Part shown: positions 35,713 through 41,683 of the stretch, in pieces
How positions within the stretch are numbered: the stretch's first letter is position 1
Layout of the letters: each line of letters starts with the position of its first letter
NCBI RefSeq assembly: GCF_006345805.1
Contig: NC_043001.1
Coordinates: 4,340,001-4,404,000 of the forward strand
Direction: 5' to 3'
Length of the DNA: 64,000 bases
From: Octopus sinensis
Lineage: Eukaryota
Position numbers: made by a program

Positions 35713-38700
35713 TATGCATATATATATATATCGTATATATATACATATATATATATTAGACATGGCCTGGGCCAATACTGGCCAAAACCTTTCTAAGTTA
35801 TTCTAAGTTATATATATATGTATATATATATATCGTATATATATATATATATATATATATTTTTTAGTCAATTTAGGGTAGCAAAAAAATTCAATAGAAA
35901 TTTATCGCTACCAGCGGCCTGATGGAAAAGAGAAAATAGTCATCGACTAAATATATAAATATAACAATTTAGGAGTGACCCCAACAGGTCACTCGTCCAC
36001 CAGAAGAGCAGCCATAACTCACACCGCCAAGTAGTAGTAATTCAGAAATTAGGTGAAAATTTAAAAAACATTTACCCTAATTCATCTTTTAGACGTTGCA
36101 ACGTTTCTGTGTCATTAATGATCAAATTAGCTTAATTAAATTAAATTAAGCCAATCTACCATAGGTTACACTTCATCAGTAAAAGACCTGGGAGAGACAA
36201 ATATACACGAGGCGTCTGTATCGATGCCTACGGGATATCTGACTTAAAATTTTCAAGACTGACGTATTCGCGCCAAACTTATCAACAGTAAATATAAACT
36301 GCCGATTCAATCTCAGAATTATTCAGAAAATTATCAATTAGTCAATTTAGGGTAGCAAAAAAATTCAATAGAAATTTATCGCTACCAGCGGCCTGATGGA
36401 AAAGAGAAAATAGTCATCGACTAAATATATAAATATAACAATTAGGAGTGACCCCAACAGGTCACTCGTCCACCAGAAAGAGCAGCCATAACTCACACCG
36501 CCAAGTAGTAGTAATTCAGAATTAGGTGAAAATTTAAAAAAACATTTACCCTAATTCATCTTTTAGACGTTGCAACGTTTCTGTGTCATTAATGATCAAA
36601 TTAGCTTAATTAAATTAAATTAAGCCATCTACCATAGGTTACACTTCATCAGTAAAAGACCTGGGAGAGACAAATATACACGAGGCGTCTGTATCGATGC
36701 CTACGGGATATCTGACTTAAAATTTTCAAGACTGACGCATTCGCGCCAAACTTATCAACAGTAAATATAAACTGCCGATTCAATCTCAGAATTATTCAGA
36801 AAATTATCAATTAGTCAATTTAGGGTAGCAAAAAAATTCAATAGAAATTTATCGCTACCAGCGCCTGATGGAAAAGAGAAAATAATCATCGACTAAATAT
36901 ATAATATAACAATTTAGGAGTGACCCCAACAGGTCACTCGTCCACCAGAAAGAGCAGCCATAACTCACACACCGCCAAGTAGTAGTAATTCAGAAATTAG
37001 GTGAAAATTTAAAAAACATTTACCCTAATTCATCTTTTAGACGTTGCAACGTTTCTGTGTCATTAATGATCAAATTAGCTTAATTAAATTAAATTAAGCC
37101 AATCTACCATAGGTTACACTTCATCAGTAAAAGACCTGGGAGAGACAAATATACACGAGGCGTCTGTATCGATGCCTACGGGATATCTGACTTAAAATTT
37201 TCAAGACTGACGTATTCGCGCCAAACTTATCAACAGTAAATATAAACTGCCGATTCAATCTCAGAATTATTCAGAAAATTATCAATTAGTCAATTTAGGG
37301 TAGCAAAAAAATTCAATAGAAATTTATCGCTACCAGCGGCCTGATGGAAAAGAGAAAATAGTCATCGACTAAATATATAAATATAACAATTTAGGAGTGA
37401 CCCCAACAGGTCACTCGTCCACCAGAAGAGCAGCCATAACTCACACCGCCAAGTAGTAGTAATTCAGAAATTAGGTGAAAATTTAAAAAACATTTACCCT
37501 AATTCATCTTTTAGACGTTGCAACGTTTCTTCTTCTTTCTGTGTCATTAATGATCAAATTAGCTTAATTAAATTAAATTAAGCCAATCTACCATAGGTTA
37601 CACTTCATCAGTAAAAGACCTGGGAGAGACAAATATACACGAGGCGTCTGTATCGATGCCTACGGGATATCTGACTTAAAATTTTCAAGACTGACGTATT
37701 CGCGCCAAACTTATCAACAGTAAATATAAACTGCCGATTCAATCTCAGAATTATTCAGAAAATTATCAATTAGTCAATTTAGGGTAGCAAAAAAATTCAA
37801 TAGAAATTTATCGCTACCAGCGGCCTGATGGAAAAGAGAAAATAGTCATCGACTAAATATATAAATATAACAATTTAGGAGTGACCCCAACAGGTCACTC
37901 GTCCACCAGAAAGAGCAGCCATAACTCACACCGCCAAGTAGTAGTAATTCAGAAATTAGGTGAAAATTTAAAAAACATTTACCCTAATTCATCTTTTAGA
38001 CGTTGCAACGTTTCTGTGTCATTAATGATCAAATTAGCTTAATTAAATTAAATTAAGCCAATCTACCATAGGTTACACTTCATCAGTAAAAGACCTGGGA
38101 GAGACAAATATACACGAGGCGTCTGTATCGATGCCTACGGGATATCTGACTTAAAATTTTCAAGACTGAGAAAATAGAAAAAGAAAATAGTCATCGTTGC
38201 AACGTCTAAAAGATGAATTAGGGTAAATGTTTTTTAAATTTTCACCTAATTTCTGAATTACTACTACTTGGCGGTGTGAGTTATGGCTGCTCTTTCTGGT
38301 GGACGAGTGACCTGTTGGGGTCACTCCTAAATTGTTATATTTATATATTTAGTCGATGACTATTTTCTCTTTTCCATCAGGCCGCTGGTAGCGATAAATT
38401 TCTATTGAATTTTTTTGCTACCCTAAATTGACTAATTGATAATTTTCTGAATAATTCTGAGATTGAATCGGCAGTTTATATTTACTGTTGATAAGTTTGG
38501 CGCGAATACGTCAGTCTTGAAAATTTTAAGTCAGATATCCCGTAGGCATCGATACAGACGCCTCGTGTATATTTGTCTCTCCCAGGTCTTTTACTGATGA
38601 AGTATAACCTATGGTAGATTGGCTTAATTTAATTTAATTAAGCTAATTTGATCATTAATGACACAGAAACGTTGCAACGTCTAAAAGATGAATTAGGGTA

Positions 38701-41652
38701 AATGTTTTTTAAATTTTCACCTAATTTCTGAATTACTACTACTTGGCGGTGTGAGTTATGGCTGCTCTTTCTGGTGGACGAGTGACCTGTTGGGGTCACT
38801 CCTAAATTGTTATATTTATATATTTAGTCGATGACTATTTTCTCTTTTCCATCAGGCCGCTGGTAGCGATAAATTTCTATTGAATTTTTTTGCTACCCTA
38901 AATTGACTAATTGATAATTTTCTGAATAATTCTGAGATTGAATCGGCAGTTTATATTTACTGTTGATAAGTTTGGCGCGAATACGTCAGTCTTGAAAATT
39001 TTAAGTCAGATATCCCGTAGGCATCGATACAGACGCCTCGTGTATATTTGTCTCTCCCAGGTCTTTTACTGATGAAGTGTAACCTATGGTAGATTGGCTG
39101 AATTTAATTTAATTAAGCTAATTGATCATTAATGACACAGAAACGTTGCAACGTCTAAAAGATGAATTAGGGTAAATGTTTTTTAAATTTTCACCTAATT
39201 TCTGAATTACTACTCCTTGGCGGTGTGAGTTATGGCTGCTCTTTCTGGTGGACGAGTGACCTGTTGGGGTCACTCCTAAATTGTTATATTTATATATTTA
39301 GTCGATGACTATTTTCTCTTTTCCATCAGGCCGCTGGTAGCGATAAATTTCTATTGAATTTTTTTGCTACCCTAAATTGACTAATTGATAATTTTCTGAA
39401 TAATTCTGAGATTGAATCGGCAGTTTATATTTACTGTTGATAAGTTTGGCGCGAATACGTCAGTCTTGAAAATTTTAAGTCAGATATCCCGTAGGCATCG
39501 ATACAGACGCCTCGTGTATATTTGTCTCTCCCAGGTCTTTTACTGATGAAGTGTAACCTATGGTAGATTGGCTTAATTTAATTTAATTAAGCTAATTGAT
39601 CATTAATGACACAGAAACGTTGCAACGTCTAAAAGATGAATTAGGGTAAATGTTTTTTAAATTTTCACCTAATTTCTGAATTACTACTACTTGGCGGTGT
39701 GAGTTATGGCTGCTCTTTCTGGTGGACGAGTGACCTGTTGGGGTCACTCCTAAATTGTTATATTTATATATTTAGTCGATGACTATTTTCTCTTTTCCAT
39801 CAGGCCGCTGGTAGCGATAATTTCTATTGAATTTTTTTGCTACCCTAAATTGACTAATTGATAATTTTCTGAATAATTCTGAGATTGAATCGGCAGTTTA
39901 TATTACTGTTGATAAGTTTGGCGCGAATACGTCAGTCTTGAAAATTTTAAGTCAGATATCCCGTAGGCATCGATACAGACGCCTCGTGTATATTTGTCTC
40001 TCCCAGGTCTTTTACTGATGAAGTGTAACCTATGGTAGATTGGCTTAATTTAATTTAATTAAGCTAATTTGATCATTAATGACACAGAAACGTTGCAACG
40101 TCTAAAAGATGAATTAGGGTAAATGTTTTTTTAAATTTTCACCTAATTTCTGAATTACTACTACTTGGCGGTGTGAGTTATGGCTGCTCTTTCTGGTGGA
40201 CGAGTGACCTGTTGGGTCACTCCTAAATTGTTATATTTATATATTTAGTCGATGACTATTTTCTCTTTTCCATCAGGCCGCTGGTAGCGATAAATTTCTA
40301 TTGACTTTTTTTGCTACCCTAAATTGACTAATTGATAATTTTCTGAATAATTCTGAGATTGAATCGGCAGTTTATATTTACTGTTGATAAGTTTGGCGCG
40401 AATACGTCAGTCTTGAAAATTTTAAGTCAGATATCCCGTAGGCATCGATACAGACGCCTCGTGTATATTTGTCTCTCCCAGGTCTTTTACTGATGAAGTG
40501 TAACCTATGGTAGATTGGCTTAATTTAATTTAATTAAGCTAATTTGATCATTAATGACACAGAAACGTTGCAACGTCTAAAAGATGAATTAGGGTAATGT
40601 TTTTTTAATTTTCACCTAATTTCTGAATTACTACTACTTGGCGGTGTGAGTTATGGCTGCTCTTTCTGGTGGACGAGTGACCTGTTGGGGTCACTCCTAA
40701 ATTGTTATATTTATATATTTAGTCGATGACTATTTTCTCTTTTCCATCAGGCCGCTGGTAGCGATAAATTTCTATTGAATTTTTTTGCTACCCTAAATTG
40801 ACTAATTGATAATTTTCTGAATAATTCTGAGATTGAATCGGCAGTTTATATTTACTGTTGATAAGTTTGGCGCGAATACGTCAGTCTTGAAAATTTTAAG
40901 TCAGATATCCCGTAGGCATCGATACAGACGCCTCGTGTATATTTGTCTCTCCCAGGTCTTTTACTGATGAAGTGTAACCTATGGTAGATTGGCTTAATTT
41001 ATTTAATTAAGCTAATTTGATCATTAATGACACAGAAACGTTGCAACGTCTAAAAGATGAATTAGGGTAAATGTTTTTTAAATTTTCACCTAATTTCTGA
41101 ATTACTACTACTTGGCGGTGTGAGTTATGGCTGCTCTTTCTGGTGGACGAGTGACCTGTTGGGGTCACTCCTAATTGTTATATTTATATATTTAGTCGAT
41201 GACTATTTTCTCTTTTCCATCAGGCCGCTGGTAGCGATAAATTTCTATTGAATTTTTTTGCTACCCTAAATTGACTAATTGATAATTTTCTGAATAATTC
41301 TGAGATTGAATCGGCAGTTTATATTTACTGTTGATAAGTTTGGCGCGAATACGTCAGTCTTGAAAATTTTAAGTCAGATATCCCGTAGGCATCGATACAG
41401 ACGCCTCGTGTATATTTGTCTCTCCCAGGTCTTTTACTGATGAAGTGTAACCTATGGTAGATTGGCTTAATTTAATTTAATTAAGCTAATTGATCATTAA
41501 TGACACAGAAACGTTGCAACGTCTAAAAGATGAATTAGGGTAAATGTTTTTTAAATTTTCACCTAATTTCTGAATTACTACTACTTGGCGGTGTGAGTTA
41601 TGGCTGCTCTTTCTGGTGGACGAGTGACCTGTTGGGGTCACTCCTAAATTGT

Positions 41653-41683
<31 letters not shown>

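What the first reader, a model, noticed from the sequence alone, without database searches (positions are those of the whole stretch)
35864..41657. 5.8-kb retrozyme-like array: ~12 tandem 474-bp hammerhead units folded into a giant inverted repeat
Seen: about 4.9 units run on the minus strand and about 7.3 on the plus strand, diverging from a central switch. Units are nearly identical, non-coding, carry one type I HHR each, and the whole block lies between (TA)n tracts. 35864-38010 mirrors 38195-40331 (about 2.1-kb arms, 184-bp spacer). Established: tandem HHR repeats (non-LTR retrozymes) self-cleave into monomers that circularise and are thought to be mobilised by Penelope-like elements, which often insert with inverted terminal repeats. 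Inference: this is one recent insertion made by rolling-circle reverse transcription of a ~474-nt circular RNA, primed from both target strands. A multimer-by-multimer inversion and a unit of this size look unusual to me. A read-through transcript would be multi-kb dsRNA and a potential ADAR/RNAi substrate.
Basis: partly seen in the sequence, partly recalled or inferred. Interest (0 to 1): 0.92.

Follow-up and report, generated by a model that had tools for sequence, protein, structure and literature searches.

The report
Inverted hammerhead-repeat (retrozyme-like) array in (TA)n
A 5.8-kb block of twelve nearly identical 474-bp non-coding repeats, each carrying a hammerhead-ribozyme-like motif, sits in a (TA)n tract as two head-to-head arms, the layout that Penelope-like retroelements leave when they insert.

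Summary
TRF finds 4.8 units (35864-38169, minus sense) and 7.3 units (38195-41665, plus sense) of a 474-bp repeat. The units differ by 0-3 substitutions, are non-coding and lie between (TA)n tracts.

All 12 units carry CUGAUGA, GAAA and GUC in type I order. Ten of 12 pass my post-hoc three-helix descriptor, against 0 of 300 background shuffles and 0 of 5000 unit shuffles. No Rfam hammerhead model matches, even at E<=10 on 141 nt. The motif has an A.A mismatch at the base of helix II, a 66-nt helix II and a 12-nt palindromic helix III that favours a double hammerhead.

The "184-bp spacer" is 159 nt of minus-arm unit plus a 25-nt patchwork. Both outer ends stop 5-6 nt after a duplicated hairpin+CCTAAATTG module; 0.07% of end pairs would do so.

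Best reading: a retrozyme-like, non-autonomous element integrated once, primed on both target strands, as published for Penelope-like elements. Rolling-circle templating, self-cleavage and assembly correctness are untested. Unit size (published range 51-972 bp) and inverted copies (a PLE hallmark) are not unusual. New member of a known kind; moderate interest.

The parts
35598..35860 (.). Left (TA)n target tract. It is interrupted at 35757-35811 by the 3' end of an unrelated retroposon-like repeat.
   Evidence: TRF rows 35598-35756 and 35809-35860; sequence read; the 35757-35811 segment matches 20722-20763 and 20862-20903 at 88-90%.
35864..38169 (-). Minus-sense arm. From the centre outward: partial unit (positions 305-475), 4 full units (M1-M4), then a 3' partial unit ending at unit position 229. 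Predicted cleavage sites (C of GUC): 37999, 37514, 37040, 36566, 36092.
35864..35912 (-). Outer (3') end of the minus arm: a hairpin followed by CCTAAATTG (unit 216-224). The arm stops 5 nt later at unit 229, followed by four A and then (TA)n.
   Evidence: (hairpin segment -14.7 kcal/mol).
38170..38194 (-). 25-nt junction patchwork made of two short fragments that match unit positions about 150-168 (one base missing) and about 155-163. It joins the plus arm through a CG dinucleotide shared by both sides.
   Evidence: local alignment of 38194-38011 to a unit trimer covers 38169-38011 only; the remaining 25 nt were read by eye against the unit.
38195..41657 (+). Plus-sense arm. It starts at unit position 464, inside the helix III palindrome just after GAAA, runs through 7 full units (P1-P7) and ends in a 3' partial unit at unit position 134. 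Predicted cleavage sites: 38206 (orphan, with no core of its own upstream), 38681, 39155, 39629, 40102, 40577, 41050, 41523.
39061..39163 (+). One complete hammerhead-like motif (representative of 12). It has an 8-bp helix I; CUGAUGA; an unpaired A; a 4-bp helix II closure, internal loop and 19-bp hairpin (66 nt in all); an unpaired A; GAAA; a 4-bp helix III with a 4-nt loop inside a 12-nt palindrome; and GUC, with cleavage predicted after 39155.
41622..41657 (+). Outer (3') end of the plus arm: a hairpin followed by CCTAAATTG (unit 120-128). The arm stops 6 nt later at unit 134 and runs into (TA)n.
   Evidence: (hairpin segment -15.4 kcal/mol).
41658..41675 (.). Right-hand (TA)n remnant directly abutting the plus arm. 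A further (TA)n lies at 41972-42054, beyond a 146-bp foldback and 150 nt of unique sequence.

Best explanation
The block is one young insertion of a non-autonomous, non-coding, hammerhead-bearing tandem repeat, of the kind called an animal non-LTR retrozyme. It sits in a (TA)n microsatellite.

Inferred mechanism. A Penelope-like-element (PLE) type RT/endonuclease cut both strands of the (TA)n target. Each free 3' end primed reverse transcription on multimeric (or circular) 474-nt RNA, starting at one of two equivalent internal sites 5-6 nt downstream of a hairpin+CCUAAAUUG module. The two same-polarity cDNAs grew towards each other for 7.3 and 4.8 units. One made short template jumps, which left the 25-nt patchwork. 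Their 3' ends then paired through a CG microhomology and were filled in. The result is two head-to-head arms.

If transcribed in the sense direction, consecutive units should pair their 12-nt palindromic helix III into double hammerheads and cut after GUC, releasing 474-nt monomers that fold into a compact structure.

What is shown: the anatomy, the motif, the folding energetics, the junction and the end positions. What is inferred: the catalysis, the circles, the enzyme and the order of events.
For: Array and inversion.

Youth, and equal divergence within and between arms: 0-3 substitutions per pair.

Hammerhead-like motif:
- All core nucleotides are present in type I order in 12 of 12 units.
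- 10 of 12 units pass a three-helix descriptor, with 0 hits in the other 58 kb (both strands), 0 of 300 dinucleotide shuffles of that 58 kb, and 0 of 5000 shuffles of the unit.
- The hammerhead-constrained fold is -27.6 kcal/mol against an MFE of -28.3.
- Two copies cofold into a double hammerhead at -71.3 against 2 x -28.3. Helix III alone is -1.6 as a hairpin and -19.3 as a dimer.
- An unpaired base 5' of stem II, an enlarged helix II and a palindromic helix III are the published traits of PLE-type hammerheads (PMC4209133 passages).
- A mismatch at the base of helix II occurs in the axolotl retrozyme HHR_Amex2 (PMC7229834 passage).

Monomer fold: -127.8 kcal/mol, z = -5.6, with 0 of 100 shuffles as stable. 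The antisense gives z = -3.4.

Insertion signature:
- Head-to-head arms, tandem copies and (TA)n on both sides with no discernible TSD match PLE insertions (PMC8557442).
- PLE protein cleaves and extends both strands at AT-rich DNA and starts RT at two internal RNA sites (PMC11167929).
- Both arms end 5-6 nt after the only two copies of CCTAAATTG in the unit, each preceded by a hairpin predicted in the full-length MFE and centroid. Only 75 of 105,925 possible end pairs (0.07%) share such a context.

Single event rather than assembly fold-back or DNA duplication:
- The flanks are not mirrored.
- The arms differ in length and phase.
- The junction is asymmetric.
- 0 of 4 mirrored unit pairs share a variant.
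- No (TA)n is left between the arms.
Against: - No Rfam hammerhead model matches: at gathering score on the whole window, at E<=10 on 6.6 kb, or at E<=10 on a 141-nt stretch. I had no positive control for those models.
- The motif lacks the usual G10.1-C11.1 pair (A.A instead). Helix II is 66 nt.
- 2 of 12 copies are damaged.
- There are no related sequences, so no covariation support.
- My descriptor and the end-motif statistic were both defined after seeing the data.
- (TA)n is common here: 5.5% of background bases lie in perfect (TA)>=6 tracts and 8.2% of positions lie within 10 nt of one. The target context alone is therefore weak.
- No PLE RT or GIY-YIG domain was found in any of the 36 ORFs of 120 aa or more. 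Shorter or frameshifted remnants were not scanned.
- The sequence between the two putative RT start sites is 95 nt, not the 30-40 bp 'tail' described for PLEs.
- The plus-arm end overlaps an AT-rich stretch of the unit, so simple microhomology with (TA)n could place it there.
- Most differences between units are 1-nt homopolymer indels, as expected of long-read consensus error. Copy numbers and the inversion cannot be checked without reads.
- Nothing distinguishes a circular template from a linear multimeric one. PLE in vitro data favour unprocessed RNA, and Li et al. discuss local DNA amplification as a source of the tandems.
Confidence: 0.6

Rival explanations
1. This is an ordinary satellite-type tandem array that grew by DNA-level processes (unequal exchange, replication slippage). 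It was then partly duplicated in inverted orientation by a replication fold-back or template switch at the hairpin-prone 12-nt palindrome. The hammerhead-like motif is a passenger or relic.
For: The plus arm starts exactly inside the palindrome, and the junction carries short patchwork fragments with 2-nt microhomology, as replication template switching also produces. Li et al. 2026 discuss local amplification as the origin of retrozyme tandems (passage).
Against: A fold-back duplication gives one new random breakpoint at the outer end of the copied arm. Here that end lies at (TA)n and at the same offset from the duplicated hairpin+CCTAAATTG module as the other arm's end (0.07% of end pairs). 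No variant is shared in mirrored register (0 of 4 pairs). That second point is uninformative if all the variants are younger than the duplication.
Confidence: 0.15
2. Assembly artefact: a fold-back chimeric long read or a mis-resolved repeat created the inversion, the copy numbers, or both. The true locus is a single-orientation array.
For: Long inverted and tandem repeats are hard to assemble, as noted for PLE structures in PMC8557442. About half of the inter-unit differences are 1-nt homopolymer indels typical of long-read consensus. No reads are available.
Against: - The arms are unequal (4.8 and 7.3 units) and end at different unit phases.
- The centre is asymmetric, with a 159-nt extra segment and a 25-nt patchwork.
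- The flanks are unique and not mirrored; each continues for more than 20 kb.
- Arm-specific variants exist, including a 10-nt insertion and a GT insertion.
Confidence: 0.12
3. Two independent insertions of the same family landed in opposite orientations in one (TA)n hot spot, rather than one twin-primed event.
For: This (TA)n tract has collected other insertions: a retroposon 3' end at 35757-35811 and a 146-bp foldback at 41676-41821. (TA)n is the preferred PLE target.
Against: No (TA)n remains between the arms. They are joined by unit-derived patchwork. Between-arm divergence equals within-arm divergence. A second insertion into the first array would leave first-array units on both of its sides, which is not seen.
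Confidence: 0.1

Closest known systems
Animal non-LTR retrozymes (coral, mussel, axolotl; Cervera & de la Pena 2020, PMC7229834; Li et al. 2026 preprint 10.64898/2026.07.22.740005)
   Same: Tandem units of a few hundred bp, one type I hammerhead-like motif per unit, GC below 50% (34.7% here), no coding capacity, a highly self-paired monomer, and minimal-hammerhead repeats in the same genome region. The 7-unit arm matches the statement that 75% of families have at most seven units.
   Different: The motif is not found by Rfam. It has A.A at 10.1/11.1, a 66-nt helix II and a 12-nt palindromic helix III. In the retrozyme papers I opened, 'inverted' is absent (PMC7229834) or occurs only in a reference title (Li et al.; PMC7761336). 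No expression or cleavage data exist for this one.
Penelope-like element insertions (pLTR partial tandems with an inverted 5'-truncated copy; Craig et al. 2021, PMC8557442; Frangieh et al. 2024, PMC11167929)
   Same: Head-to-head inverted copy, tandem arrangement, (TA)n/AT-rich target with no discernible TSD, two alternative internal RT start sites leaving extra sequence at one end only, and a hammerhead with an unpaired base 5' of stem II and a palindromic helix III.
   Different: There is no RT/GIY-YIG ORF here or in any of the 36 ORFs of 120 aa or more in the window. The 'tail' equivalent is 95 nt rather than 30-40 bp. Both arms are multimers of a short non-coding unit. The putative start sites are not AC-rich.
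Double (dimeric) hammerheads of amphibian satellite/retrozyme repeats and PLE minimal hammerheads (PMC4209133; PMC7761336)
   Same: Weak monomeric helix III with a palindromic sequence. Two neighbouring copies are predicted to form an extended intermolecular helix III and swap helix I strands.
   Different: The palindrome is much longer (12 nt, giving a 12-bp intermolecular helix). A 4-bp hairpin is still possible in the monomer. Helix I is 8 bp rather than 4-6.
LINE-1 twin priming (5' inversions).
   Same: Both target strands prime cDNA synthesis, the two cDNAs are resolved by microhomology, and the result is a head-to-head inversion with the 5' ends at the centre.
   Different: Different enzyme class. 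Here both arms are multimers, and each ends at a specific internal site of the template rather than at a poly(A) tail.

Membership tests
Animal non-LTR retrozyme | Short (about 150-450 bp; 51-972 bp in the wider survey) head-to-tail tandem repeats | tested here: met
   Period 474, 4.8 + 7.3 copies; size ranges read.
Animal non-LTR retrozyme | Complete type I hammerhead motif in at least two consecutive units, motif MFE below -5 kcal/mol (operational rule of Li et al. 2026, Methods) | tested here: met
   My own descriptor passes 6 consecutive plus-strand units and 3 consecutive minus-strand units (10 of 12 in all). The motif MFE is -28.3. The published rnabob/RNAmotif descriptors were not available to me, so whether they accept the A.A and the 66-nt helix II is unknown.
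Animal non-LTR retrozyme | No LTR, no coding capacity, GC below 50% | tested here: met
   Simple tandem units with no terminal repeats distinct from the unit; longest open stretch 48/61 codons; GC 34.7%. PBS and PPT motifs were not searched for.
Animal non-LTR retrozyme | Stable, highly self-paired monomer RNA | tested here: met
   -127.8 kcal/mol, z = -5.58, 0 of 100 shuffles as stable. It was folded as a linear molecule. A circular fold with shuffles timed out.
Animal non-LTR retrozyme | Self-cleavage and accumulation of linear and circular monomer RNA | not testable with these tools
   Needs in vitro transcription and RNA from the organism.
Animal non-LTR retrozyme | Co-occurrence with autonomous PLEs in the genome | tested here: inconclusive
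   No PLE domain in 36 of 36 ORFs of 120 aa or more in the window. Five copies of a SINE-like repeat with a PLE-type minimal hammerhead motif are present. The rest of the genome could not be searched.
Hammerhead ribozyme, type I | Conserved core (C3-A9, G12-A14, A15.1-U16.1, H17) in the order helix I 5' strand, helix II hairpin, helix III hairpin, cleavage site, helix I 3' strand | tested here: met
   Read directly in 12 of 12 units. M1 has a 10-nt insertion next to GAAA.
Hammerhead ribozyme, type I | Three helices flanking the core | tested here: met
   Helix I 8 bp, helix II 4 bp + 19-bp extension, helix III 4-5 bp in 10 of 12 units. 0 of 300 and 0 of 5000 shuffles reproduce this. The descriptor is post hoc.
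Hammerhead ribozyme, type I | Watson-Crick 10.1-11.1 pair (usually G-C) closing helix II on the core | tested here: not met
   An A follows A9 and an A precedes G12, giving an A.A mismatch or two unpaired A. Precedents: a U.U mismatch at the base of helix II in HHR_Amex2 and an unpaired base 5' of stem II in PLE hammerheads.
Hammerhead ribozyme, type I | Match to curated covariance models (Rfam hammerhead families) | tested here: not met
   No hammerhead hit at gathering score, or at E<=10 on 6.6 kb or on 141 nt.
Hammerhead ribozyme, type I | Loop 1-loop 2 tertiary contacts; catalytic activity | not testable with these tools
   Internal loops exist in helix I (after 8 bp) and helix II (after 5 positions), but no conserved contact nucleotides could be checked. 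Mussel retrozyme hammerheads also lack the archetypal contacts.
PLE-type insertion (as a mobilisation signature, not as an autonomous PLE) | Partial tandem plus an inverted 5'-truncated copy adjacent at the 5' end | tested here: met
   definition read.
PLE-type insertion (as a mobilisation signature, not as an autonomous PLE) | AT-rich/(TA)n target, TSD not discernible | tested here: met
   The base rate of lying within 10 nt of a (TA)>=6 tract is 8.2%.
PLE-type insertion (as a mobilisation signature, not as an autonomous PLE) | 30-40 bp 'tail' at one end, reflecting two internal RT start sites | tested here: inconclusive
   The two arms end at unit positions 134 and 229, so 95 nt are present at one end only. 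The logic is the same but the length differs. This is one locus.
Autonomous Penelope-like element | ORF with telomerase-like RT and GIY-YIG endonuclease | tested here: not met
   There is no ORF in the array, so the array is not itself a PLE.

The most novel reading that the evidence does not exclude
The locus is a frozen record of one twin-primed integration. It exposes the cis signal by which animal retrozymes borrow a Penelope-like enzyme: a hairpin followed by CCUAAAUUG, present twice per unit, with reverse transcription starting 5-6 nt downstream on each target strand. That would be the first conserved motif tying a non-LTR retrozyme to its autonomous partner. A 2020 review said no such motif was known (PMC7761336 passage).
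Probability: 0.25. Interest if true: 0.65.

Novelty: new member of a known kind. Interest (0 to 1): 0.42.

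Why it matters
The link between animal retrozymes and Penelope-like elements currently rests on three things: co-occurrence, shared hammerhead type and pLTR similarity.

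A young, almost undecayed insertion keeps both ends and the inversion junction. It therefore gives base-level predictions that can be tested genome-wide:
- where reverse transcription starts (unit positions about 134 and 229);
- what it targets ((TA)n);
- that both strands prime.

It also adds a hammerhead variant that curated models miss, with a non-canonical base of helix II, a very long helix II and a 12-nt palindromic helix III. That is a reminder that Rfam-based screens under-count such elements.

If the array is transcribed from outside, it would give a roughly 2-kb perfect hairpin. This is plausible small-RNA or editing substrate, but it is speculation here.

Tried and rejected
Rfam. 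Four searches found no hammerhead or other ribozyme family:
- whole window at gathering score;
- 35500-42100 at E<=10 (14 weak hits, all microsatellite- or hairpin-driven miRNA-like matches);
- 38570-38710 (7 chance-level hits);
- 24880-25030 (3 chance-level hits).
I had no positive control for the hammerhead models.

Homology of the unit to the rest of the window. There were no blastn hits outside the array. A local alignment to the SINE-like 3' module was no better than shuffles, with 79 of 300 scoring at least as high. A common origin of the two hammerhead-bearing repeats is therefore not shown.

Mirrored flanks (fold-back test). The left flank has no inverted match in the right flank.

tRNA or SINE content of the flanks. 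ARAGORN found 0 genes in the window.

Protein domains. All 36 stop-to-stop ORFs of 120 aa or more were scanned with Pfam. The only results were a sub-threshold zf-RVT hit (E 0.004) in a frame that overlaps the (ATCT)n tract at 21407-21648 (TRF), and low-complexity hits at 9187-9552. ORFs under 120 aa and frameshifted remnants were not scanned.

Circular-RNA folding with shuffles timed out. I replaced it with linear folds.

Literature:
- No paper text holds the 16-nt core strings (0 papers).
- 'retrozyme' + 'inverted' gave 15 papers, 12 listed. I opened passages in three of them. The only retrozyme-related use of 'inverted' was for PLE copies (PMC8557442). In Li et al. and PMC7761336 the word occurs only in reference titles. 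PMC7229834 has 0 occurrences. The other listed papers were not opened.
- 'retrozyme' + 'microsatellite' and 'retrozyme' + 'target-primed' gave 6 papers each. The passages I read report no target preference or end-point analysis for animal retrozymes.
- A looser six-term search was uninformative.
The published HHR descriptors, retrozyme family lists and supplementary figures could hold this family or inverted arrays.

Copy number of the family, empty sites, the autonomous partner and the identity of the organism all stayed unchecked. Complex prediction, the structure tools and the atlas were not relevant, because no protein is involved.

Full report
OBSERVATION

Tandem Repeats Finder reports two adjacent arrays of the same 474-bp unit:
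- 35864-38169: 4.8 copies, 97% matches.
- 38195-41665: 7.3 copies, 99% matches.

The CTGATGA core occurs 5 times on the minus strand and 7 times on the plus strand inside the block. The arms are therefore inverted, with their 5' ends meeting at the centre.

I cut the array at the predicted cleavage site. This gives 11 full units: ten of 473-475 nt, and one of 485 nt that carries a 10-nt insertion. Pairwise differences are 0-3 substitutions plus single-base indels, and they are no larger between arms than within arms. One unit, M4, scores higher only because of a locally shifted alignment.

No stop-to-stop ORF of 120 aa or more overlaps the units. The longest open stretch through a tetramer is 48 codons in sense and 61 in antisense.

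(TA)n lies on both sides.

THE RIBOZYME CALL

Rfam gives no hammerhead hit in any of three searches:
- whole window at gathering score;
- E<=10 on 6.6 kb;
- E<=10 on a 141-nt stretch, where the filters are laxest.

The call therefore rests on direct reading. In type I order, each unit has:
- an 8-bp helix I;
- CUGAUGA;
- one unpaired A;
- a 4-bp stem continued by an internal loop and a 19-bp hairpin (66 nt between the core strands);
- one unpaired A;
- GAAA;
- a helix III that is a 12-nt perfect palindrome (4 bp plus a 4-nt loop as a hairpin);
- GUC.

I wrote a three-helix descriptor after seeing the motif. It accepts 10 of 12 units. The two failures are P1, with a G-to-A change in helix II, and M1, with the 10-nt insertion. 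The descriptor finds nothing in the other 58 kb on either strand, nothing in 300 dinucleotide shuffles of that background, and nothing in 5000 shuffles of the unit.

The hammerhead fold costs only 0.7 kcal/mol relative to the MFE (-27.6 against -28.3).

Helix III is marginal as a hairpin (-1.6 kcal/mol) but strong between two copies (-19.3). Two motif copies cofold into the classical double hammerhead at -71.3 kcal/mol, against -56.6 for two separate monomers.

The non-canonical base of helix II has published relatives:
- a U.U mismatch at that place in the axolotl retrozyme HHR_Amex2 (PMC7229834, passage);

I conclude that the motif is very unlikely to be chance and is best described as a PLE-flavoured type I hammerhead variant. 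Its activity is untested.

THE MONOMER

The sense monomer folds to -127.8 kcal/mol (z = -5.6; 0 of 100 shuffles as stable). The antisense gives z = -3.4. GC is 34.7%. Together with the tandem layout, this meets the descriptive criteria for animal non-LTR retrozymes that I read in PMC7229834 (sections 13-14) and the operational rule of Li et al. 2026 (Methods).

The unit size is not unusual. That preprint reports consensus lengths of 51-972 bp, and at most seven units in 75% of families (Results).

JUNCTION AND ENDS

The "spacer" is not foreign sequence. Read on the minus strand, 38169-38011 is a perfect copy of unit positions 305-463. The remaining 25 nt (38194-38170) are two short fragments matching unit positions about 150-168 and about 155-163. 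The plus arm begins at unit position 464, directly after GAAA and inside the palindrome. The two sides share a CG dinucleotide at the join.

At the outer ends, the plus arm matches the unit to position 134 and the minus arm to position 229. These are 6 nt and 5 nt after the only two copies of CCTAAATTG in the unit. Each copy is preceded by a stable hairpin; the segments fold at -15.4 and -14.7 kcal/mol, and both hairpins appear in the full-length MFE and centroid.

Exhaustive enumeration shows that 75 of 105,925 possible end pairs (0.07%) would share a 9-mer at such offsets. The criterion is post hoc.

The (TA)n context is weaker evidence. 5.5% of background bases lie in perfect (TA)>=6 tracts, and 8.2% of positions lie within 10 nt of one.

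WHAT IT MOST LIKELY IS

The architecture matches what is described for Penelope-like elements in three respects:
- They show a bias for (TA)n that hides target-site duplications.
- They carry an extension at one end (PMC8557442, passages).

A purified PLE protein cleaves and extends both strands of AT-rich DNA and starts reverse transcription at two internal RNA sites, which explains that extension (PMC11167929, main text).

I therefore read the block as one integration event. Both strands of a (TA)n target primed cDNA synthesis on multimeric or circular unit RNA, at two equivalent internal sites. The two cDNAs were joined at the centre after short template jumps.

The literature proposes that retrozymes are mobilised by PLEs. 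A 2020 review states that no conserved motif points to the partner element (PMC7761336, passage). This locus offers a candidate.

WHAT IS NOT SHOWN
- Self-cleavage, circles and expression.
- The enzyme. No PLE domain was found in any of the 36 ORFs of 120 aa or more.
- Rolling-circle as opposed to linear multimeric templating.
- The correctness of the assembly.

RIVALS
- Assembly fold-back. This is disfavoured by the unequal arms, the different end phases, the asymmetric centre, the unmirrored unique flanks and the arm-specific variants, with 0 of 4 mirrored unit pairs sharing a variant. Only spanning reads can settle it.
- DNA-level fold-back duplication at the palindrome. This explains the centre but not the motif-equivalent outer ends at (TA)n.
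- Two independent insertions. These should have left (TA)n between the arms, or split one arm. Neither is seen.

SURROUNDINGS

The window is AT-rich and full of (TA)n tracts.

It holds five copies of a SINE-like repeat. The repeat has a B-box-like head, an (AAT)n tract and a 3' module bearing a minimal hammerhead-like motif whose helix III is a loop-less 4-nt palindrome. The copies share a fixed 3' end and are variably 5'-truncated. Only one copy keeps an intact core, and Rfam does not see it. I found no similarity between this repeat and the array unit beyond the core strings.

NOVELTY AND SCORE

This is a new member of a known kind. I could not find a head-to-head retrozyme multimer, or a retrozyme end-point or target analysis, in the papers I searched and opened. 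Supplements and most listed papers were not read.

The locus has value as a clean, young example that turns the retrozyme-PLE hypothesis into base-level predictions. Interest 0.42.

Noticed in passing
window 25346-24900 (-), 48214-47822 (-), 49159-49069 (-), 49453-49666 (+), 60440-60585 (+): Five copies of a SINE-like dispersed repeat. It has a tRNA B-box-like head, an (AAT)n/(AAC)n tract, and a roughly 150-nt 3' module with a minimal hammerhead-like motif (unpaired A after CUGAUGA; helix III reduced to a loop-less ACGU palindrome). The copies share a constant 3' end and are variably 5'-truncated. Only the 25346-24900 copy keeps an intact core. Neither Rfam nor ARAGORN recognises it.
   Followed up: partly
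window 41676-41821: A 146-bp foldback with 57-bp perfectly paired arms. It sits directly after the right-hand (TA)n remnant and is flanked by TA on both sides, which looks like a Stowaway-type MITE. It is a single copy in the window. It gives a sub-threshold MIR3444 match (51.9 bits against a gathering score of 80), which reflects the hairpin shape only.
   Followed up: partly
window 35757-35811; also 20705-20790 and 20845-20925: A short retroposon-like 3' end: a conserved block of about 42 nt, followed by an 8-10-nt tandem motif and then (TA)n. It occurs three times, once inside the (TA)n tract left of the array. This suggests the (TA)n tracts here are repeatedly hit, or are seeded by such tails.
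   Followed up: partly
window 61746-62344 and 62913-63999; also 13847-14109, 16044-16332, 19760-20109: Very long imperfect (TA)n tracts, up to 1.1 kb. GC falls to 17.5% in the last 2 kb of the window. The last tract runs to the window edge.
   Followed up: no
window 37524-37514 region (unit M1) and 38607 region (unit P1): Two of the 12 hammerhead-like motifs are damaged: a 10-nt GAA-rich insertion next to the GAAA core strand in M1, and a G-to-A change that breaks a helix II pair in P1. Neither change is compensated.
   Followed up: yes
window 21309-22067 (+): A 252-aa open frame with a weak, sub-threshold zf-RVT (reverse-transcriptase zinc-binding) Pfam hit (E 0.004, 18.1 bits against a cut-off of 27.5). 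It overlaps an (ATCT)n tract at 21407-21648. It may be a decayed non-LTR element or a low-complexity artefact.
   Followed up: no
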